From IMG/VR virus record IMGVR_UViG_2617270955_000009: DNA of 22,150 nt; one strand, given 5' to 3'. This document shows positions 5,413-21,506 of the stretch, one piece after another. A program made the translations under genes and the position numbers. The notes under the pieces were generated by a model. That model did not search any database, had not been told where the DNA came from, and saw only the letters and a program-made list of their open reading frames with translations. Each line of letters starts with the position of its first letter. Position 1 is the first letter of the stretch. This DNA comes from a virus. Lineage: Duplodnaviria; Heunggongvirae; Uroviricota; Caudoviricetes.

Positions 5413-6603
5413 TTAATTGCTGTTAACCGAGGTGACCAGATTTGCCAGGTATTTATCGGTAATACGCTGGCGCAGGGTCAGGTTTTCAAGAGGAGGCACC
5501 GGGGTATAGTCGTAGTCGATATACAGTTTTCCGGCCTTGAGGGTTTCCGCATCGTTGGATTCTTCGCTGAACCAGCAGGTCGCATCCACGATATAGCCGT
5601 TTGTTTTCAGCTCACGGAATTTGGCATTGATACCGTCAACGATGTCGCGAATCAGCGTTGCGGTGATGGGCTTGTCCACCGCCCACATGTGCGCCTCAGC
5701 CATCGTGTCGGCCAGCACCTGCGCGGTGCGGGTGTAGTTTTCAAAGAGGAACAGCGGGTCATCAGAGCAGGTACGGTTACCCCAGAAGCGGAAACCGTCG
5801 CGGCGAATCAGCGTAGTGACGCCTGACTCGTTAAGCAGGTCAGCATCAGTGCCGGACTCCTGCAAATCCCAGAATACAGATGCGCTGATGCCGGTAACAC
5901 CGTTTACCCCGACGTTGGACAGCGTTTTATGCCAGCCCTGCTCCTGGTCGATTTTAGCGCGCAGACCCAGCGCACGGGCGGTGGCATACGCGGTGGCGGT
6001 GGTGCTGGTGACCGTATCCCATGCGAGGAAATCCGGCCAGATGACCATCAGCTCACGCTGGCTGAAATTCTGGCGGTAGGCTTTCACCTCGGAAATGGTT
6101 TTACAGCCCCATGCGCTGATATACCCGAAAGCGCGCAGCTTCTGACAGACAGATGCCAGTGCAACAGCCACCTCTTTGGTGTCCAGTCCCGGTACGCCGA
6201 GAATACGCGGTTTAACACCGGTTACCGACTCCGCCGCCAGCAGGGCTTTCAGTCCGGTGTACTGACCGTTTTCGTCGGTGGTGCCGATGATATTGGAAAC
6301 GGTCTGCGCAAGTTTCGTTTCTTCGTCGTCGCCGGTGCCGTCTTCAACACGCACGACAACGGTGACCGGTTTTGACTGGTCAGCGATGGCCTGCAACGAC
6401 GCCGCCAGCGTGCCTTTTTTACCAGCCTTTGCAATTGCGCTCTGCACATTGGTAATCAGCACCGGTTTATTGAGGGGGAAGGTTTCCGCATCCGCATCGC
6501 TGGCCGTGCAGACCATGCCGACAATGGCAGTGGATACGGTGGAAATGACGCGGGTGCCGTCGTTAATCTCCAGCACCTGCACGCCGTGATGATAGTCACT
6601 CAT
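5413..6603 (-). CDS. FI: Contractile tail sheath protein FI, 396 aa
   Basis: 396-aa ORF; length and synteny match P2 gpFI. GGAG Shine-Dalgarno sits about 10 nt upstream of the ATG on the minus strand. Confidence 0.92.
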   Translation of the reverse strand: MSDYHHGVQVLEINDGTRVISTVSTAIVGMVCTASDADAETFPLNKPVLITNVQSAIAKAGKKGTLAASLQAIADQSKPVTVVVRVEDGTGDDEETKLAQTVSNIIGTTDENGQYTGLKALLAAESVTGVKPRILGVPGLDTKEVAVALASVCQKLRAFGYISAWGCKTISEVKAYRQNFSQRELMVIWPDFLAWDTVTSTTATAYATARALGLRAKIDQEQGWHKTLSNVGVNGVTGISASVFWDLQESGTDADLLNESGVTTLIRRDGFRFWGNRTCSDDPLFLFENYTRTAQVLADTMAEAHMWAVDKPITATLIRDIVDGINAKFRELKTNGYIVDATCWFSEESNDAETLKAGKLYIDYDYTPVPPLENLTLRQRITDKYLANLVTSVNSN

Positions 6604-6704: not shown

Positions 6705-6729
6705 AAAGACGGGCAATCAGCCCGTCTTT
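6705..6729 (-). terminator. Rho-independent terminator hairpin (minus-strand oriented)
   Basis: AAAGACGGG-caatcag-CCCGTCTTT, a 9-bp stem with 7-nt loop, followed on the minus strand by the T-rich tract TCTTTATCTGTTGTTTC. Confidence 0.6.
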
Positions 6730-6777
6730 AAATCACAAATTTTGACAGTTTTTGATTTGCATTCGAGAATAACAGTT

Positions 6778-6800
6778 CGGGGGAGAAAAAACCTCCCCCG
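6778..6800 (-). terminator. GC-rich hairpin immediately 3' of the cargo operon (probable terminator)
   Basis: C-GGGGGAG-aaaaaac-CTCCCCC-G, an 8-bp G/C stem 15 nt after the TAA stop at 6815-6817; the downstream minus-strand tract (GAACTGTTATTCTC) is only moderately U-rich. Confidence 0.45.
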
Positions 6801-6814
6801 CCCACGTAACTTGC

Positions 6815-7864
6815 TTAACTACATGAATCAATGATGTTTTTCACAAGCTTATTTATTTCAGATTCATTAGTGCCAAATTCACCCGCTTTAAAATTAATAC
6901 CTCGCGCTGCAAGATTTCTTTTTATTTTACTTACTTCACTCAGCATAAAGTCATAATTTAACGTTTTTTCTTTAATGCCCTTTGAATATATTACAGGGAA
7001 GGCTTTCATTAATGCCGCATATCCTGTGAGTTTACTTAAATAATATTCCCTTGGTGTATTCCACTCAACTGGATAGACATTGCTAATAGCATTAAAATAA
7101 TTCAATATTATTTTTTGAATTACAGCGTCATTCTCTTCGATAAAATAATCGCGGAATATACACTGATTATTTGGCGTTAATGGCAGATTCATTTTTAACA
7201 TTCTTGCATCATCATCAGGTTTTTTTGAAATATGTTGGATAAGATATTTAATGAAAGTGCTTTGTGATAATGATGCATTATCTTGGTTTATTTCCTTTTT
7301 CCCAAGCATTTTTAGCTTTTTATAAAAAGGGGAATCAGGATTACTGTTTATTCCTCTCGCGATTTCGTGGCATGTTTTTTGTGGACTCCTGCGTTCTGCA
7401 AGCGAAAATAAATCATATACAATTGATGGATTTACACGAGTTTGTTTACTATTAATAATTGAGAAAACATAGGCTTTTTCTTCATCAGTAAGATCAAACA
7501 TTAAAACAACAGGTAGTTCAAAAAGTTTAGCATTAGAGGAATTTTTAATTCCCCATAATCTGTGTTGACCATCGATAACATCACCTATAACCACTTCAGA
7601 CTCAAAGTAAAAATAGGTATCATCCATTTTTAAATTGGATGAATCATCGACGGAAATTATGATCGGCGTTGGAAAAGTCGCATCCGGCTCACTAGTGTAC
7701 TTTGCGATTTCTGAAACTCTTGATGATGAAATATCCCTTTGCACACCAAATTCGAAATCTCTGCGACGATCAACTCTAACTATATCGAGCAAGTCAATGG
7801 CTCTTATTGATGTTAAATAGAAAGTACCGATTGGTTGATTAACTTCAATATATTTCAACTTCAT
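6815..7864 (-). CDS. DGQHR-domain protein (DndB-like, ParB/sulfiredoxin-fold), 349 aa; accessory cargo gene B
   Basis: Exact DGQHR motif at residues 98-102 (nt 7559-7573, VIDGQHRLWG), preceded by the family-typical N-terminal QPIGTFYLTSIRAIDLL element. AT-rich codon usage. GGAG Shine-Dalgarno 8-11 nt upstream. Start ATG overlaps the stop of the upstream membrane gene (ATGA at 7861-7864). Confidence 0.8.
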   Translation of the reverse strand: MKLKYIEVNQPIGTFYLTSIRAIDLLDIVRVDRRRDFEFGVQRDISSSRVSEIAKYTSEPDATFPTPIIISVDDSSNLKMDDTYFYFESEVVIGDVIDGQHRLWGIKNSSNAKLFELPVVLMFDLTDEEKAYVFSIINSKQTRVNPSIVYDLFSLAERRSPQKTCHEIARGINSNPDSPFYKKLKMLGKKEINQDNASLSQSTFIKYLIQHISKKPDDDARMLKMNLPLTPNNQCIFRDYFIEENDAVIQKIILNYFNAISNVYPVEWNTPREYYLSKLTGYAALMKAFPVIYSKGIKEKTLNYDFMLSEVSKIKRNLAARGINFKAGEFGTNESEINKLVKNIIDSCS

Positions 7865-8460
7865 ATCATAACTCCTTTACCATCATCAGTTACTTCATTG
7901 GTTGCCATTGTCTGATCTATAACTATTGCATCTTCTTTTTCTATATAACTTTCATCATTTATATCTGTATGTGCAGTAGCGTTAAGTTTTAATACGCCAA
8001 ATGTATAGCATACTAAGACTATAGAAATAACATAAATTATAGGTTGAGTTAAACCGAATGTTAAATCATTAGAATTTGGTAGGATTAAATCCTTTGATTG
8101 CGTAGCAGCGTATATTATACCTGATAATTGTAATAAAATAATCAATAATATTATTGATATGATTTTTATTGTTTTAAATTCAAGTTTTGAACTAAAAAAA
8201 GTTACAAACATAGGCCCAAGGGCAGAGGCTATTAATGCAATGGAAAATGTGTAAAAACTTCCTGACGAACCTTCTATGTAAATAGATTGATCTAGTGGTA
8301 TTGAATGTGAATAATATCTTATGATTATATTTGCAATAATCCCCATTTGCCCACAAACAACTGTAAAAACGATCCAAATAAAAAACTCTCTTTTGTTTTT
8401 TCTTATCGCATCGAATGGATAGGAAAGGGATTTCTTTAATATTTGCCAGTCTTTACTCAT
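7861..8460 (-). CDS. Small integral membrane protein, four predicted TM helices, acidic C-terminal tail (199 aa from ATG; 202 aa if the GTG at 8467-8469 is used); accessory cargo gene A
   Basis: Hydrophobic segments FFIWIVFTVVCGQMGIIANIII, FYTFSIALIASALGPMFVTFF, IKIISIILLIILLQLSGIIYAA and TQPIIYVISIVLVCYTFGVL; C-terminal DINDESYIEKEDAIVIDQTMATNEVTDDGKG. The ORF-track start at 8469 is a GTG; the first ATG is at 8458-8460 with AAGAG upstream. Confidence 0.7.
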   Translation of the reverse strand: MSKDWQILKKSLSYPFDAIRKNKREFFIWIVFTVVCGQMGIIANIIIRYYSHSIPLDQSIYIEGSSGSFYTFSIALIASALGPMFVTFFSSKLEFKTIKIISIILLIILLQLSGIIYAATQSKDLILPNSNDLTFGLTQPIIYVISIVLVCYTFGVLKLNATAHTDINDESYIEKEDAIVIDQTMATNEVTDDGKGVMI

Positions 8461-8646
8461 GTTATGCACTCTTTATTTAAACTTATCAACAATATGTAAC
8501 TATCAATTAATAACCGTTTACTCTTTTCAAATAATAAAATTATAATCATCAAAAAAATCGACATTATAATTAGACAACATTTTTAACACTAAGTGATACC
8601 TGACTCATGTCTCCAGACCCTAAAACCGCTTGCATAATTTAGAATG

Positions 8647-8675
8647 ATAATACTACCTTATAGTAGGCTTGTGAA
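8647..8675 (-). promoter_or_regulatory. Candidate sigma70-type promoter for the cargo operon (TTCACA-17 bp-TATTAT)
   Basis: Read from the minus strand of the AT-rich intergenic region; reasonable -35/-10 spacing but one of several possible matches in AT-rich DNA, with a long (about 180 nt) leader. Confidence 0.2.
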
Positions 8676-8864
8676 CTTATATAGCCTGAGTCAAGTAATT
8701 AATAAATCACTTATTTCGTTTTTTTTGCATTTGGTCGCTGTGATTTTTTCATAAACAAACTTACAATGATGTCAGCAATGTCTGCTCTTGGCACAGAGCG
8801 GACTGTCAGATTAGTTTTTACTCTGTGCCATAGATGTATAAACTCACATCAGAGCTTATACAAT

Positions 8865-9443
8865 TTATTGTGGCATTTCAGGCCATTCTATATCCGGAGC
8901 ATCTTCCGGCTGAATGCGATTCAGTAGCACACGGTATTTTTTCCAGTGTGTCAGGCTTAACTTTTCTTCCTCAGTTGCCATATCCAAATCGACAGCATCC
9001 TGCAGCGTGGCAATGATTTCACCTGCATATGCAATCTGCTCTTTCTTCTGAGACTCAGCCGCTCTGACAAGTGCATCACGCTCTGCATTCTCATCATTCA
9101 CCCACGCATTTCCGTTCCATTTCTGATAATCCCCCTCCGGGGAAATGGCTGTCACGTCTGGAGATAATGCGCCAAGTTCAGAAATATAAATGGCTGCTCC
9201 CGTTTTCGTTTCGTATACGGTCTTTCCGCGATGGTCTTCCATCAACTCCCATTTCATTTCATCTGCATTGAAAACGGCTGCATAACCAGCCGGTATATCA
9301 GGCGGCGCAATATCTGTACTGTTTGCAGGCAAACCTGTATACGGAGGAATATATGCATCACTTTCGCCAATAAATTCATTGGTTCCATCAAGTAAATTGA
9401 AAACGCGGATAGTTTGTGCTTCTGCACTCATTCTGAAAGCCAT
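8865..9443 (-). CDS. G: Tail fibre assembly protein (Tfa / gpG-like chaperone), 192 aa
   Basis: 192-aa ORF immediately 3' of tail fibre H with a Tfa-typical conserved C-terminus ([29 protein letters not shown]). Confidence 0.85.
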
Positions 9444-12061
9444 TATGCAAGCCTCACAATATAGTTAAATGCGATGTTTTTGACGGTGTTTTCGGTATTA
9501 CCTGTAGCATTAACGGTAATAGAGTGCCCGTGTGAGCCAATAGCAACCGTGTGTGAATGTGCACCAATACCAACCGTATGATTATGTGCGCCAATATCTA
9601 CCGTGTGGGCATGATTCCCGGCAGCTCCTGATGTGCCATTAAACGATGGGTTGTCAAAGCCTGTTTTACCGGTTTCACCATTAGTATTGGCATTCCCTCT
9701 GTAAATGGTATGTGTATGGTTACCAGTGGTATTAGTGGTTTTTGTTCCGTAGTTAAACGTACTGACTGTCTTCGTCCCGTAATCAAATGAACTGGTCGTT
9801 TTCGTCCCTAAATCCGTATTTGACGCACTGGCACTGTGAGTATGCGATTTAATCCCGTCCTGTTCCTGTGACAATACGGCACGCCCACTGGCGGGTTTGC
9901 CCTTGATTGTCCAGCCGCGCATATCTGGAATAACACCAGAAGGATAGACAATAGCCAGTTTCGGATATGCAGCCTTATCAAACGTCTGCCCCTGCATAAT
10001 TGCATAGCCTGCAGGTGGTGTATCTGATGGCCACGGCAGCGGAACACCAGGCGGAAACGCTTCAATATCTTTCGTCCCGTCAAAGGTTACGCCGTTAATT
10101 GTCCTTGCCGTTTTCAGCTTTGTTGCTGTAGCAGCATTGCCGGACAGTTCGCCTGAAAGACCGGCGCTGAAGGTTTGTTTCGCCGCCCATGTCTGGGCTT
10201 CGTCAATAATTGGCACACGTCTTGTGGTGATCGTGCGACTTCCCGGATTTCCTGAAATACGCACCATAAAAAAGCGGTAGTTCGCTTTACTTACAGTGCT
10301 GCGCCATACATGCATTGAGCGCCCCGCACCGGAATCATCACTCGGACCAACTGAGATGTTTATCAGGTTGCCATCAATGACGCCCCAGTCCATACCTTCG
10401 GGAATGTTGGTCATGTTATCAAGCCGAACGGTTATCAGACTGCCCGGCACAAAGTCGTAGGTCTGCCAGTCCAGGCTGGAGAGTTTTGCCACTGCACCGC
10501 CGATACCCAGATTCAGGGGAAGTGAATACGAGGTGTAGACTTCACGCCATTCGCTCCACGAGCTGCCGGTATAGACGCGCTCAAACGTGCGACCTTTAAG
10601 GGTTGCACCTGTTCCGGCAGTTGTATAACGCTGCCATACGTTAACACCATCAAAGCGCCTCAACACTTCCAGAATCCCGAGGACTGTCACGCCGTTTCCG
10701 TCCAGTATTGGACCGTTGGTCGCTTTACCTGTAACGCTGTAAATACCTGGTGAAGTCACCTCATTCAAATCCCCGTCGTAATAACGACTCTCTGACTGAT
10801 GACCGACTCTTAACCACGGTTCCCACTGTGGATTTGATGCATCCCAGCTTGCCGCAAGGCAGCGGACATACATATTTCCACGGCGAGTGGTATAACGTTG
10901 CGTTCTTCCATAATTCCCGCCTTCGAGGATCTCAAGCATCCCCTGAGCAAAGCCGCCTTCCTCTGGATAATTGCGTTCATATGAAGCTATAGCCGAGCTA
11001 CTGTTACGCCATAAACCAAGATGCTCGGCGGCTCCAAGCGTATTCAGGTCTATAGTCGTACTCAAAGGGCGGGTAGCAGATTGAGTGTGACGCCATACGC
11101 CCCACGGACCATCAGTGCCATTCCACTTATTGGCGAGTTTACGCATGTAAACATTGCCGTCTCTCGTGGTAAAGCGTTGCGTACCTGCAAAATTGCCGGC
11201 AGCAAAAACCTCAAGCACACCGACAGCATTATCTTCCGGGAAATTTTTCTCCAGTGTTGAGTTAGTTGAGGTAGCTTTAGACCAGATCCCCAGATAAGCC
11301 TTAACGGGACCAAATGTATTCAGGTCGGCATCAACCGGCATTTCGCCATTGTTTTTCATAAACGTCAGACTGGTAACGCCAACATTGTCCAGAAAAGCTG
11401 ATTTATCCTGGATATCTGCACCATTCTGATTTTTCGCCAGACGTGAATTTGCGTTGTCATTTGCTGCCTTGACCGCTTTTGGCGTTGCCGCCAATGACTC
11501 ACTGGTGCTGTTTGTTGCACTGCTTAACTGAGTAAAACCTTTTTCTGTCAGCGTGGCGTCAGGATGGCGGCGGGACTGCTCATGTTCTGCGATTTTGTCA
11601 TCGACGTAATCCTGCGTCGCCATCACTGTGCTGGCATCAATACTCAGCTCAACGGACGCCACGTTACTGACAATAATAACCATGCGGCAGGTCTGCGCAC
11701 GCCCGGAGCCTTCAGCGAGTTCAGGCTTATAGCTTTCTGCCATGTTGGCGACCGCAATCAGTGTTCCGGCATCGTCATACAGACCAAGCTCACGCATCCA
11801 GAAGCCGCCCACTTCGGGCGGTACAACCAGTTCAGCCACGATATAGTTTTTATTCTTATTATCCACGCTGACTTTATTCAGAGCGTGACGCCAGACCTCA
11901 TGCACCAGTTTCGTCTGACCGGCATCCGGCACCGGCAATTTGCCATTACCGTCACCCACGGCCATTGCAGACAGGTTTACTTTTTTCCCGCCGGGGACAG
12001 TGGCGGCTGCCAGCTTCGCGGCTCCGGCAGTAGTGATAACGGTTTTAAATTTCGTGCTCAT
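9443..12061 (-). CDS. H: Tail fibre protein H, 872 aa (longer than the 669 aa of P2)
   Basis: N-terminus ([21 protein letters not shown]...) is P2 gpH-like; the central part has three ~70-aa internal repeats; the C-terminus has His-x-His repeats ([36 protein letters not shown]). Confidence 0.88.
9515..9630. repeat. Tandem ~27-bp repeats within the 3' end of H, encoding the histidine-rich (HxH) repeat
   Basis: Plus-strand units resembling caaccgtgtgtgaatgtgcaccaatac / caaccgtatgattatgtgcgccaatat / ctaccgtgtgggcatgattcccggc; the period of 27 nt equals the 9-aa protein repeat. Confidence 0.6.
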
Positions 12062-18767: not shown

Positions 18768-19784
18768 TTACGCTCCCGGCTCTGCGGTCGCTTTAGCCAG
18801 TGTGGAGAAATCACCGACCTTAATTTTTTCCACCAGACAACCGGCGGCGTAGTCTTCCACCACGTAATCAATGTTCATTGACTCGTAGTTCTCCACGCGG
18901 TCGAGTTTCGGGTTTTCCTCAATCACGCGGCGATGGCTGTCATCCATGTAGTAGATGGACAGGTTTTCCAGCTTTGTGATGAGCATCGCATCCGCCGGGA
19001 AGTACGGGACGCGTACCGCCGGCAGGTTACCGATGCGTTTCTGGCTGATGATGACGTCAGCGGCCAGCATTTCGCTGTTGTCCTGCTCCTTGTTGACGAT
19101 GGGAAAATACTTGTCCGCCAGTAGCTGACGTCCCACAATCACCACAAGGTCAGGGTCTTCCTGATACCACGGCTCAATCAGGTTGTTGGTCGCATCCATC
19201 ACCAGTGCGTCAAGGCTGGCATAATCACCGCCCTTACCCACGCGGATAACCTCAGAGATGGTGTGCCCTTCCTCGTCAGTGACCTTGCTCATCACGCGCG
19301 CCGGTGCTTCATTGCGGTATTTCTGCAGCCAGCCGACCGCCACATCCTGTAGCATCGGATTACTGCTGCGGTCAGAGGTTTCGGCACGCCTCACGCCGTT
19401 AAAACCGGCCATGATTAAATCAAGGGACTGGCGTTTGATAATGGCGTTACGGATACGGAGCTGGAAATCCTGATAACGCGCCCACAGGTCAAGCGTTTTG
19501 TAGCGGATATAAAAATCGAAGTTAATCTGGTCGCATTCGTACTTGTTTGACGCCAGCTTCGAGAAGTCCTTCGGCTGACGCTCGGTGCCACCGGCGGTGT
19601 CGCTGGTGCTGGCGATGGAGCCGGTGACACCAATACCAATTTTTTCCCCTTTCATTTCGCTGACCGGCACAATGTTGATGCGGGTCAGAAAGTCAGAGGA
19701 CTCCTGCATGGTGTTCATCAGGGTCTGGGTGACCGACGGTTCAACGGTGAATTTTTTCGACACATCACCGGTGCGTATTTTCAT
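18768..19784 (-). pseudogene. N: Major capsid protein gene N, 5'-truncated by IS insertion (338 codons retained of about 357)
   Basis: ORF is P2 gpN-like from GDVSKKFTVEPSVTQTLMNTMQESSDF onward. The in-frame upstream sequence hits a stop within IS-type repeat sequence (GAGTGATCTCC), and the ATG at 19782-19784 is fortuitous at the junction. Confidence 0.8.
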
Positions 19785-19964: not shown

Positions 19965-21506
19965 ATGCCAACAGTTCCAATTTCTATGAGAAAACTTAAA
20001 GAAATTCTTAGGCTTAAATACGGTGTTGGACTCAGCCATCGACAAATTGGTCGTAGTCTTGCAATCTCCCCTTCCGTTGTATCCAGATATGCTAATCGGG
20101 CGGCTCAACTTGGCATAAAGCAGTGGCCCTTACCTACAGGATGGGATGATACAAAACTAAAACATGCGTTCCTTCAGACCCAGGTTAAGATGAAGAAGCA
20201 CTCTCTGCCTGACTGGGCTACAGTACACCGGGAACTGCGTAATAAATGCGTGACGCTGCAGCTACTCTGGGAAGAATACTGTGAGCGTAATCCAGGCGGT
20301 TTTTACAGCTATAACCATTACTGCCGGATGTACCGTGAATGGCTCAAAACCACTTCACCATCAATGCGTCAGGTACATAAAGCTGGCGAAAAACTTTTCG
20401 TTGATTACTGTGGACCTACCGTTGGCGTTACCGACCCTGAGACCGGAGAAATAAGAACTGCTCAGGTCATCGTAGCTGTTCTCGGGGCATCAAGTTACAC
20501 ATGGGCAGAGGCCACCTGGTCTCAGCAGCTTGAAGACTGGGTGATGAGTCATGTTCGCTGCTTCCAGTGGTTGGGTGGCGTTCCTGAACTTGTTGTTCCG
20601 GACAATCTGAAAAGCGCCACATCCAGGGCATGTAAGTATGATCCTGACGTTAACCCTACCTACCAGCAGATGCTTGAGCATTATAATGTCGCAGTTTTGC
20701 CTGCGCGGCCACGTAAACCGAAAGATAAAGCCAAAGCTGAAGTTGGCGTTCAGGTTGTTGAACGCTGGATCATGGCCCGAATCAGGCATGAGATCTTCTA
20801 CAGCCTTGCATCGCTTAATCAGCGCATTCGGGAGTTGCTGGAAAGACTGAATAACAAAATAATGCAGAAGTTGGGTTATTCACGTGCAGAACTCTTCATC
20901 CAGCTTGATAAACCCGCACTGAAGCCTCTTCCTGAAGCCAGTTACAGTTACACCCTGGTGAAGAAAGTCAGAGTTCATGCCGATTACCACGTGGAAATCG
21001 ACAAACATTACTACTCGGTTCCATGTTCGCTGTTAGGCCAGCAACTGGAAGCATGGATCTCCGGAGAACTGGTAAGACTCTTCAATCAGGGGCAGGAGGT
21101 TGCTGTGCACCCGCGCAAGCGTACTTATGGCTACAGTACCCGCAACGAGCACATGCCTGAAGCTCATCGACAGCATGCCACCTGGACGCCAGAGCGTCTT
21201 CTGGAATGGGCGGGGCACATAGGCAGTGAAACTCATAGTTATGTGCTTCATATACTGAACTCTCGTCCACATCCGGAACAAAGCTATCGCTTCTGCCTTG
21301 GACTCCTGAACCTTCATAAAAAATACAGTAAAGCCAGACTTAATGCAGCATGTGCAAGAGCTCTGAAAACAAAGGTATGGCGTCTGTCAGGTATTAAATC
21401 GATCCTGGAAAAAGGTCTGGATAAACAACCTGTTCAGGATCCAAAACCAGATCTGTTATCCACGATGGAACACGAAAACGTACGCGGCAGTGAGTATTAC
21501 CACTGA
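19965..21506 (+). CDS. istA: IS21-family transposase IstA, 513 aa
   Basis: 513-aa ORF with an N-terminal helix-turn-helix region (LSHRQIGRSLAISPSVVSRY) and a central integrase-like region; followed 12 nt later by an IstB-type gene. Confidence 0.85.
   Translation: MPTVPISMRKLKEILRLKYGVGLSHRQIGRSLAISPSVVSRYANRAAQLGIKQWPLPTGWDDTKLKHAFLQTQVKMKKHSLPDWATVHRELRNKCVTLQLLWEEYCERNPGGFYSYNHYCRMYREWLKTTSPSMRQVHKAGEKLFVDYCGPTVGVTDPETGEIRTAQVIVAVLGASSYTWAEATWSQQLEDWVMSHVRCFQWLGGVPELVVPDNLKSATSRACKYDPDVNPTYQQMLEHYNVAVLPARPRKPKDKAKAEVGVQVVERWIMARIRHEIFYSLASLNQRIRELLERLNNKIMQKLGYSRAELFIQLDKPALKPLPEASYSYTLVKKVRVHADYHVEIDKHYYSVPCSLLGQQLEAWISGELVRLFNQGQEVAVHPRKRTYGYSTRNEHMPEAHRQHATWTPERLLEWAGHIGSETHSYVLHILNSRPHPEQSYRFCLGLLNLHKKYSKARLNAACARALKTKVWRLSGIKSILEKGLDKQPVQDPKPDLLSTMEHENVRGSEYYH

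What the first reader, a model, noticed from the sequence alone, without database searches (positions are those of the whole stretch)
6815..7864. Orphan DndB-like DGQHR protein with no Dnd partners
The exact DGQHR motif (residues 98-102) and the N-terminal QPIGTFYLTSIRAIDLL element are hallmarks of the DndB/DGQHR branch of the ParB/sulfiredoxin fold. In Dnd systems DndB is a DNA-binding regulator; ParB-fold proteins can be DNA-binding NTPases or nickases. A standalone copy in a prophage moron suggests a role as sensor or effector acting on DNA, for example recognising modified or invading DNA.
Basis: partly seen in the sequence, partly recalled or inferred. Interest (0 to 1): 0.7.

Follow-up and report, generated by a model that had tools for sequence, protein, structure and literature searches.

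The report
Membrane protein plus DGQHR cassette
The DndB-like DGQHR protein is real, but it is half of a widely transferred two-gene cassette with a small four-helix membrane protein, sitting in the defence-cargo slot of a P2-like prophage, so it is probably an undescribed anti-phage module.

Summary
ORF 6815-7864(-) encodes a 349-aa protein with a genuine DGQHR domain (TIGR03187 E 2.5e-47) and a ParB/sulfiredoxin-fold N-terminal half. It has no Dnd or Dpd partners.

It is not standalone. Its start overlaps by 4 nt (ATGA) the stop of a 199-aa four-TM protein gene (7861-8460). That pairing recurs in 55 of 58 loci from many bacterial phyla and one archaeon, and no third gene is conserved.

The 2.08-kb cassette has 32% GC against 54% in the rest of the window. 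It fills the P2 Z/fun cargo slot between tail-fibre assembly and tail sheath. A sibling prophage carries an AAA ATPase plus DUF4435 pair (PARIS architecture) in the same slot.

The same pair is:
- a single integron cassette in Vibrio vulnificus;
- Tn7-like cargo in two loci;
- a 97%-identical chromosomal islet in Salmonella.

More distant relatives, also preceded by a small multi-TM gene, sit beside restriction-modification, dnd or pbe genes.

Best reading, inferred and untested: an NTP-switched DNA sensor coupled to a membrane effector or anchor that acts against phages or other invading DNA. I found no defence model or paper describing it beyond an untested Pfam label, "DndB + hypothetical", in one supplementary table.

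The parts
6815..7864 (-). Gene for the 349-aa DGQHR-domain protein: a ParB/Srx-fold N-terminal half and a helical C-terminal half
7861..8460 (-). Gene for the 199-aa four-TM partner protein. The likely start is ATG 8460; the mechanical ORF starts at GTG 8469. It has a basic N-terminus, four hydrophobic helices and an acidic C-terminal tail ending D-D-G-K-G-V-M-I.
   Evidence: (RefSeq annotates 199 aa). It matches no Pfam, NCBIfam, PADLOC or PHROG family. G67 and Q139 are invariant; P15, Y70, D193 and G196 are nearly invariant.
7861..7864 (-). ATGA overlap: the stop of the TM gene overlaps the start of the DGQHR gene (translational coupling). The Shine-Dalgarno AAGGAG lies at 7877-7872, inside the TM coding sequence.
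   Evidence: The same 4-nt overlap occurs in 41 of 53 related pairs.
8461..8806 (-). AT-rich leader of the cassette, with a promoter-like site at 8675-8647. It travels with the two genes.
   Evidence: consensus scan only. (homology with the Salmonella copy extends to 8806).
6778..6800 (-). Terminator-like GC-rich hairpin 15 nt after the DGQHR stop codon
6705..6729 (-). Second terminator-like hairpin at the cassette/backbone junction
   Evidence: Homology with the Salmonella copy ends at 6729 and sibling-prophage backbone homology ends at 6724.
6729..8806 (-). The whole mobile cassette: 2,078 bp at 31.6% GC, against 54.3% for the rest of the window
   Evidence: GC. (97.1% identical over 2,079 aligned columns to a Salmonella enterica islet). 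(backbone homology with the sibling prophage breaks at 6724 and resumes at 8765).
5413..6603 (-). Flank: P2 FI tail sheath gene, one border of the Z/fun cargo slot
8865..9443 (-). Flank: P2 G tail-fibre assembly gene, the other border of the slot

Best explanation
The finding is the second gene of a self-contained, horizontally mobile two-gene operon: a small four-TM inner-membrane protein followed by a DGQHR (ParB/Srx-fold) protein. The operon is carried as cargo in the Z/fun variable slot of a P2-like prophage.

Most likely it is an anti-phage or anti-mobile-DNA module expressed from the lysogen. The proposed working model, all inferred, is:
1. The DGQHR protein is an NTP-binding and NTP-hydrolysing DNA-binding switch, as shown for its relative DpdB and for a DndB-like protein.
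2. It is held at the inner membrane by the cytoplasmic tail of the TM partner.
3. When it engages foreign DNA (entering, replicating or differently modified), it either gates the TM protein as a membrane-damaging abortive-infection effector, in the manner of RexA/RexB, or acts on DNA at the entry site.

Shown here: the domain and fold, the obligate pairing, mobility as a unit, purifying selection, and residence in known cargo and defence slots.
Inferred: NTPase activity, DNA sensing, the physical TM-DGQHR interaction, and the defence phenotype.
For: Domain and fold.

Pairing:
- The TM gene lies directly upstream in 55 of 58 loci across Bacteroidota, Pseudomonadota, Bacillota, Verrucomicrobiota, Planctomycetota, Spirochaetota and Methanolobus.
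- A 4-nt overlap occurs in 41 of 53 pairs.
- No third gene is conserved.
- Pairwise identities of the two proteins correlate (r = 0.88, Mantel p = 0.001).
- The 150 best of 368 TM-family representatives are only 92-275 aa, so none is fused to another domain.

Mobility as a unit:
- In V. vulnificus, attC-like repeats flank the pair and none lies between the genes.
- The pair is Tn7-like cargo in L053 and L055.
- The 2,079-bp segment is 97% identical between this prophage and a Salmonella islet.
- pN/pS is about 0.14 for both genes.

Defence-type context:
- The slot is the P2 Z/fun hotspot (10.1101/2024.10.15.618418).
- A sibling prophage with a 95-98% identical backbone has an AAA ATPase plus DUF4435 pair, the PARIS architecture, in the same slot (PMC9122126).
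- Neighbours elsewhere include DNA methyltransferases, type I, III and IV restriction genes, PD-Lambda-5, AbiH and integrases.
- More distant DGQHR clades, also preceded by a small multi-TM ORF, sit beside BglII-type restriction-modification, dndBCDE or pbeABCD-like genes.

Biochemical precedent:
- DpdB is a dimeric, DNA-stimulated ATPase (PMC10164549).
- A DndB-like protein binds ATP and GTP (PMC12704722).
Against: - There is no experimental test of this pair.
- Neither protein matches any PADLOC v2 defence model except weak DpdB hits.
- Neighbourhoods are heterogeneous and include housekeeping genes, for example ValRS in 4 loci.
- The physical interaction is inferred only from gene linkage and co-divergence.
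- The conserved C-terminal D..G of the TM protein overlaps the downstream gene's Shine-Dalgarno sequence in E. coli, so part of that conservation could be at the nucleotide level.
- The TM partners of distant clades show no detectable homology to this one (hhalign probability 2.8%).
Confidence: 0.55

Rival explanations
1. Membrane-anchored DNA-attacking enzyme (entry exclusion). The DGQHR protein is itself the effector, a ParB/Srx-type nickase or DNase. The TM protein only tethers it to the inner membrane, where incoming phage or plasmid DNA appears.
For: ParB/Srx-superfamily proteins with NTP-modulated nicking are documented (Maindola 2014 and RK2 ParB, as cited in PMC12839542). The fold is confirmed. 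The protein has 71 invariant residues across phyla, which fits an enzyme. P2's native gene in this slot, Z/fun, is an exclusion function.
Against: No HNH, DUF1524 or PD-(D/E)xK domain or motif was detected. DpdB, the best-studied full-length relative, lacks endonuclease activity (PMC10164549). An anchor-only role does not explain the invariant polar residues in the TM protein (G67, Q139).
Confidence: 0.17
2. Addiction or toxin-antitoxin-like module. The TM protein is a membrane toxin. The DGQHR protein is a DndB-like repressor or antitoxin that keeps it in check and so stabilises the mobile elements that carry it.
For: DndB is a sequence-specific autorepressor (PMC4507180). The two genes are tightly coupled. 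The pair occurs in integron cassette arrays, on plasmids and next to TA genes. An imperfect inverted repeat lies in the leader at 8698-8752.
Against: The gene order (TM first) and the very high conservation of the NTP-pocket motifs are not needed for a simple repressor. A 349-aa antitoxin with an NTPase fold would be atypical. There is no recognisable HTH domain. The inverted repeat is weak (85% complementary).
Confidence: 0.13
3. Detached accessory of a DNA-modification system. The pair normally serves phosphorothioation, methylation or deazaguanine systems as a regulator or helper, as DndB and DpdB do. Here it is an orphaned, functionless passenger.
For: The closest named family is TIGR04172, 'PT-associated DGQHR protein 1'. 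Relatives lie beside dndBCDE, pbe-like genes and BglII-type restriction-modification genes.
Against: In this clade no modification gene is conserved nearby in 58 loci. Both ORFs are intact in 55 of 58 loci. pN/pS is 0.14. The pair moves on its own as an integron cassette.
Confidence: 0.07
4. Partition or tethering function: a ParB-like protein that attaches DNA of the element to the membrane for maintenance.
For: ParB/Srx fold. PHROG 1033 is labelled 'ParB-like partition protein'.
Against: There is no ParA partner, and no ParB_N or HTH match. The pair occurs in chromosomal integron cassettes and in integrated prophages, which do not need partition.
Confidence: 0.04

Closest known systems
TIGR04172 'DNA phosphorothioation-associated DGQHR protein 1' (NCBIfam hypothetical equivalog)
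   Same: It is the best-scoring named full-length family (168.9 bits over residues 5-343). It shares the clade-specific motifs (QPxG-type N-terminus, DAxFP, SxxYxLF). Its members are also preceded by a 172-180-aa multi-TM ORF.
   Different: The score is far below the 450-bit cutoff and identity is about 27-28%. TIGR04172 members sit beside dndBCDE or pbeABCD-like genes, whereas the window and the 58 close loci have no such genes. The TM partners are not detectably homologous.
DndB (regulator of the dndBCDE phosphorothioation operon)
   Same: DGQHR domain, with the QR / DGQHR / FxxxN motifs and the ParB/Srx fold.
   Different: Identity to a true DndB is 19%. The PADLOC DndB model does not match. 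There are no dndCDE genes nearby. The partner here is a membrane protein. DndB lacks the QPIG N-terminal motif.
DpdB (ATPase of the 7-deazaguanine Dpd system)
   Same: Same two-part architecture: a ParB-like NTPase domain followed by a helical C-terminal domain. The weak full-length HMM match covers residues 5-317. DpdB is a dimeric, DNA-stimulated ATPase (PMC10164549), which is the best biochemical precedent.
   Different: The score is 56 bits against a cutoff of 300. There is no dpdA or dpdC nearby, and DpdB has no TM partner described.
RexA/RexB of phage lambda (prophage-encoded abortive infection)
   Same: Analogy only, recalled from established knowledge: a prophage moron operon encoding a cytosolic sensor plus a small four-TM membrane protein that acts as effector.
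   Different: No sequence or fold relation was found, and no PADLOC hit. RexA is not ParB-like. The gene order and the trigger are unknown here.
GmrSD / SspE / BrxU / DndI (DUF262 ParB-like NTPase fused to an HNH nuclease)
   Different: Those proteins carry a fused DUF1524/HNH nuclease. This protein has none and is instead coupled to a membrane protein.
PARIS (AriA/AriB), as the alternative occupant of the same prophage slot
   Same: It occupies the identical position between G and FI in a sibling prophage with a 95-98% identical backbone. It is a two-gene cassette.
   Different: The proteins are unrelated (AAA ATPase plus DUF4435). The relation is positional, not homologous. I identified it from annotated domain names only.

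Membership tests
DGQHR domain family (TIGR03187 / Pfam PF14072) | HMM score above the curated cutoff | tested here: met
   TIGR03187 scores 161.9 bits against 58.85, and PF14072 scores 42.6 against 29.1.
DGQHR domain family (TIGR03187 / Pfam PF14072) | QR pair, DGQHR pentapeptide and FxxxN motif (as defined in PMC4619093) | tested here: met
   Q42 R43, D98-R102 and F134..N138 are conserved across alignments A1 and A5; only G99 falls short of invariance in A5, where it is near-invariant.
ParB/sulfiredoxin fold | Structural similarity of the N-terminal domain to ParB/Srx members | tested here: met
DndB (functional family) | Encoded in or next to a dndCDE phosphorothioation operon | tested here: not met
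   There are no dnd genes in the 22-kb window. No conserved neighbour other than the TM gene exists in 58 loci. The rest of the host genome was not searched.
DndB (functional family) | Match to a DndB-specific model | tested here: not met
   The PADLOC DndB model gives no hit and only DpdB models match. Identity to a true DndB is 19%.
DndB (functional family) | Sequence-specific binding to its own promoter as a repressor | not testable with these tools
   Only a weak inverted repeat lies in the leader.
DpdB | NF041060 equivalog score of at least 300, and dpdA/dpdC neighbours | tested here: not met
   The score is 56.2 bits, and no dpd genes are nearby.
TIGR04172 PT-associated DGQHR protein 1 | Score of at least 450 bits | tested here: not met
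   The score is 168.9 bits.
TIGR04172 PT-associated DGQHR protein 1 | Adjacency to phosphorothioation (dnd or pbe) genes | tested here: not met
   Absent here and in the 58 close loci. Present for true members in L063-L065.
GmrSD / SspE-type type IV restriction enzymes | ParB-like NTPase fused to a DUF1524/HNH nuclease domain | tested here: not met
   There is no nuclease domain hit in Pfam, NCBIfam or PADLOC.
ParB CTPase (chromosome or plasmid partition) | ParB_N match, an HTH centromere-binding domain and a ParA partner | tested here: not met
   No ParB_N or HTH Pfam hit at E of 1 or below, and no ParA-like neighbour.
Known anti-phage defence systems (PADLOC-DB v2.0) | Both proteins match the models of a catalogued system | tested here: not met
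   The DGQHR protein matches only DpdB models weakly, and the TM protein matches nothing.
Candidate 'TM + DGQHR' two-gene module (defined here) | A small multi-TM ORF immediately upstream on the same strand, overlapping or abutting the DGQHR gene | tested here: met
   ATGA overlap in the window, and the arrangement is present in 55 of 58 loci.
Candidate 'TM + DGQHR' two-gene module (defined here) | NTP binding or hydrolysis, DNA binding, a TM-DGQHR complex and a defence phenotype | not testable with these tools
   Inferred only from DpdB and a DndB-like protein (PMC10164549, PMC12704722).

The most novel reading that the evidence does not exclude
The small polytopic membrane protein plus DGQHR NTPase pair is a previously unrecognised, pan-prokaryotic class of immune module. 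In it, a ParB/Srx-fold nucleotide switch reads the state of DNA (foreign, entering or differently modified) and transmits that directly to a membrane effector. Its TIGR04172 relatives beside dnd and pbe genes would then be a further, membrane-linked arm of phosphorothioate-based immunity.
Probability: 0.3. Interest if true: 0.75.

Novelty: new variant of a known kind. Interest (0 to 1): 0.6.

Why it matters
DGQHR proteins are known only as helpers of DNA-modification systems: DndB as a repressor and DpdB as an ATPase. A clade that has left those systems and is fixed to a membrane partner gives the ParB/Srx nucleotide switch a new output.

The cassette spreads across phyla and sits in prophage, integron, transposon and plasmid cargo slots. 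It is small (2.1 kb) and already lies in an E. coli prophage, so it can be cloned and tested directly.

A positive result would add a defence family that current annotation tools miss. It could also explain the function of the 'PT-associated DGQHR protein 1' genes next to dnd and pbe clusters.

Tried and rejected
- A profile search with the TM alignment in the word-indexed database was capped at 8,000 candidates and added few members. The exhaustive search gave 368 representatives; the 150 listed were all 275 aa or shorter, so no informative fusion was found.
- hhalign of this clade's TM family against the TM ORFs upstream of TIGR04172 genes gave probability 2.8%, so homology of the distant partners is unproven.
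- I considered PbeABCD as a possible home for DGQHR proteins. It is not: PbeA is helicase-like and PbeC is SMC-like (PMC6459918).
- Literature searches found no description of the pair. These covered DGQHR, DndB-like, the P2 hotspot papers, DefensePredictor and metagenomic selections. The only trace is the Pfam label 'DndB + hypothetical' in Table S5A of Rousset 2022, for the other P2 hotspot and untested. I could not retrieve those proteins to check whether they are related.
- Deposited phage genomes hold no close homologue.
- A complex prediction of TM plus DGQHR could not be run with the tools available.

Full report
**1. The observation**

The ORF at 6815-7864 on the minus strand encodes a 349-aa protein. 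DGQHR lies at residues 98-102 and QPIGTFY at residues 10-16.

The match is to the whole domain, not to a pentapeptide:
- TIGR03187 (DGQHR domain): E 2.5e-47, 161.9 bits against a cutoff of 58.85, over residues 6-290.
- Pfam DndB PF14072 is above its gathering score.
- PHROG 1033 'ParB-like': E 8e-29.

The three motifs that define the domain are a QR pair, DGQHR and FxxxN (PMC4619093). Here they are Q42-R43, D98-R102 and F134..N138. They are conserved in an alignment of 30 close homologues and in a wider alignment that includes a true DndB.

**2. What family it is and is not**

The full-length models for named functional families all fail their cutoffs:

| Family model | Score (bits) | Cutoff (bits) |
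|---|---|---|
| TIGR04172, 'PT-associated DGQHR protein 1' | 168.9 | 450 |
| DpdB (NF041060) | 56 | 300 |
| PADLOC DndB | no hit | n/a |

Identity to a true DndB is 19%, and to TIGR04172 members 27-28%. The window otherwise holds P2-like tail, baseplate, lysis and head genes plus an IS21 element, with no dnd or dpd gene.

So 'DGQHR-domain protein without Dnd partners' is correct. 'DndB' as a function is not supported.

**3. It is not standalone**

Immediately upstream lies a gene for a 199-aa protein with four hydrophobic helices (7861-8460). The likely start is ATG 8460, as in RefSeq WP_001530525. The protein matches no Pfam, NCBIfam, PADLOC or PHROG family. Its TGA stop overlaps the ATG of the DGQHR gene (ATGA), and the Shine-Dalgarno AAGGAG sits inside its last codons.

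I fetched 58 loci encoding 41-53%-identical DGQHR proteins from species representatives. They come from Bacteroidota, Pseudomonadota, Bacillota, Verrucomicrobiota, Planctomycetota, Spirochaetota, a candidate-phyla member and the archaeon Methanolobus.
- A profile of the TM protein finds a homologue directly upstream in 55 of 58 loci. Two of the three exceptions are cut by contig ends.
- The overlap is 4 nt in 41 of 53 pairs and 1 nt in 6.
- Clustering all flanking ORFs shows no third conserved gene. The next most common cluster is in 7 loci.
- Pairwise identities of the two proteins correlate strongly (Pearson 0.88, Mantel p = 0.001).
- An exhaustive profile search of 1.84 billion representatives finds 368 TM-family members. 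The 150 best listed are all 92-275 aa, so none is fused to another domain.

The TM protein has invariant G67 and Q139, and near-invariant P15, Y70, D193 and G196. Its basic N-terminus and even number of helices predict that both ends are cytoplasmic. The acidic C-terminal tail would then be available to the DGQHR protein. That last step is inference.

**4. It moves as a unit and sits where cargo sits**

In the window, the cassette (6729-8806) has 31.6% GC against 54.3% for the rest. It lies between the tail-fibre assembly gene G and the tail sheath gene FI. This is the Z/fun variable slot of P2-like phages, known to carry defence-like cargo (10.1101/2024.10.15.618418; PMC9122126).

- A sibling prophage has a 95-98% identical backbone. 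Homology breaks at window 6724 and resumes at 8765. In exactly that slot it carries an AAA ATPase plus a DUF4435 protein, the architecture of the validated PARIS system.
- Only 3 of 5,426 complete E. coli genomes carry the cassette.
- The same 2,079 bp is 97.1% identical in a Salmonella enterica chromosomal islet. That islet lies beside glyQS and a TacA-family/acetyltransferase (TacAT-type) gene pair and an integrase fragment, and the Salmonella TM protein is indexed in 570 blocks of the collection.
- Between the two copies pN/pS is about 0.14 for both genes, from 9 and 20 substitutions.
- In Vibrio vulnificus the pair lies in an integron cassette array next to AbiH and acetyltransferase cassettes. 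attC-like repeats lie just before the TM gene and just after the DGQHR gene, with none between, so it is one cassette.
- In Gallionella and Methylobacter MAGs it is cargo next to TnsA, TnsB, TnsC and TniQ genes.
- Across 133 flanking proteins, the recurrent families include DNA methyltransferases of three classes, type I, III and IV restriction components, PD-Lambda-5, PLD nucleases and integrases. Housekeeping genes such as ValRS also appear.

**5. More distant relatives**

DGQHR proteins at 22-34% identity on plasmids are also preceded by a 170-207-aa multi-TM ORF. Those on pTR3_1 (Acinetobacter) and pRiA4 (Rhizobium) sit beside BglII-type restriction-modification genes and toxin-antitoxin genes. 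True TIGR04172 members sit divergently from dndBCDE plus a cysteine desulfurase, or next to pbeABCD-like genes.

These upstream ORFs are not detectably homologous to the TM family here (hhalign probability 2.8%). The parallel is therefore architectural, not proven common descent.

**6. How it most likely works**

Shown: a ParB/Srx-fold protein with fully conserved nucleotide-pocket motifs. It is obligately co-encoded and co-evolving with a small polytopic membrane protein, it is mobile as a unit, and it is under purifying selection in cargo and defence slots.

Precedent: DpdB, the best-studied full-length relative, is a dimeric ATPase stimulated by DNA and is modelled as a clamp around dsDNA (PMC10164549). 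A DndB-like protein binds ATP and GTP (PMC12704722). DUF262 cousins are modification-sensing NTPases (PMC10164549).

Inference: the DGQHR protein is an NTP-switched DNA sensor held at the inner membrane by the TM partner. Engagement with foreign DNA either gates the membrane protein, giving abortive infection as with RexAB, or blocks DNA at entry.

My estimates:
- the two genes form one functional module: about 0.95;
- the module is a defence or exclusion function: about 0.55-0.6;
- the membrane-effector version specifically: about 0.3.

Rivals are a membrane-anchored nickase, a TA-like pair with the DGQHR protein as repressor, an orphaned modification accessory, and a partition function. Each is listed with the result that would refute it.

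**7. Known or new**

PADLOC v2 has no model for either protein beyond weak DpdB hits. Full-text searches found no description of a TM plus DGQHR pair. These covered DGQHR, DndB-like, the P2/P4 hotspot papers, DefensePredictor and metagenomic selections.

The only trace is the Pfam label 'DndB + hypothetical' for two loci in Table S5A of Rousset et al. 2022. Those loci are in the other P2 hotspot and were not tested, and I could not retrieve the proteins to check relatedness.

I therefore rate it a new variant of a known kind: a prophage-borne candidate defence cassette built on a known domain. It is more interesting than a routine moron because of the conserved membrane coupling and the breadth of transfer. 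It remains untested.

Noticed in passing
L069 4717-8202 (NZ_CP183084.1), corresponding to the window slot 6725-8764: A sibling ST131-type P2-like prophage with a 95-98% identical backbone carries an AAA ATPase plus a DUF4435 protein (PARIS architecture) in exactly the slot occupied here by the TM + DGQHR cassette. This is a clean example of cargo swapping at the Z/fun hotspot.
   Followed up: yes
L066-L068 5655-7732 (Salmonella enterica chromosomes): The same 2,079-bp cassette, 97.1% identical, sits in a Salmonella islet beside glyQS, a TacA-family/acetyltransferase (TacAT-type) gene pair, a 368-aa unknown protein and a 200-aa integrase fragment. The TM protein is indexed in 570 blocks there, so the cassette is common in Salmonella and rare in E. 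coli.
   Followed up: partly
L053 11217-15414; L055 15093-19288; L059 15049-19320; L021 2916-5742: A recurring set of neighbouring genes near the cassette: a second DGQHR protein (about 345 aa), a 528-aa protein with a weak radical-SAM match, and a roughly 520-aa GHKL/HSP90-like ATPase. All three are present in L053 and L055; L059 has the DGQHR protein and the ATPase, and L021 has the 528-aa-type protein and the ATPase. In L053 and L055 it lies in Tn7-like cargo. It looks like another uncharacterised DGQHR-based system.
   Followed up: partly
L053 6997-9288 and L021 5965-8256: A 763-aa protein lies directly upstream of the TM gene. It has a DGQHR domain at residues 230-560 and an N-terminal region with weak CARF/PD-(D/E)xK-nuclease-like hits (E about 1e-4).
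   Followed up: no
L063 6463-8236; L064 7447-9242; L065 7297-9071: True TIGR04172 'PT-associated DGQHR protein 1' genes are each preceded by a 172-180-aa multi-TM ORF. They sit next to dndBCDE plus a desulfurase, or next to pbeABCD-like genes. The pair may be an unrecognised component of phosphorothioate-based defence islands.
   Followed up: partly
L061 1084-5051 (pTR3_1) and L062 1279-6158 (pRiA4): Two unrelated plasmids (Acinetobacter, Rhizobium) place a TM + DGQHR pair beside a BglII/BstYI-family restriction enzyme and an adenine methyltransferase. The link to that one restriction-modification type may not be coincidental.
   Followed up: no
P0082, P0096, P0101, P0105; L010, L012, L017, L030: About 460-aa variants of the DGQHR protein carry a conserved C-terminal extension of about 110 aa with no Pfam match. 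They come mainly from gut and rumen Bacteroidales.
   Followed up: no
window 19965-21506 (+): An IS21-family (ISEc12) istA gene follows directly after the 338-aa ORF at 18768-19784, which I take from P2 gene order to be the major capsid gene (not checked against annotation). It lies where the scaffold gene is expected, so the prophage is probably defective. The closest complete genome, AREA_502, has the same IS at a different place, in the lysis region.
   Followed up: partly
NZ_LR890693.1 (hit H3 compared with H67): In strain MSB1_4E an IS1 element lies within the matched region, while the two coding sequences are intact and contiguous. It therefore lies outside the two genes, in the flanking non-coding DNA; its exact position was not determined.
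   Followed up: no
window 7872-7877: The Shine-Dalgarno sequence of the DGQHR gene lies within the TM gene's codons for the conserved C-terminal D-D-G-K-G motif. Part of that protein-level conservation may reflect nucleotide-level constraint.
   Followed up: no
window 9443-12061 (-): The tail-fibre protein (872 aa) ends in a histidine-rich run of short HxH-type repeats (…GNHTHT…[33 protein letters not shown]…).
   Followed up: no
window 8765-8806: This roughly 40-bp stretch is homologous both to the P2 backbone of the sibling prophage and to the Salmonella islet. It overlaps a perfect 10-bp-arm hairpin (8789-8830). It may mark the recombination junction by which the cassette entered the slot.
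   Followed up: no
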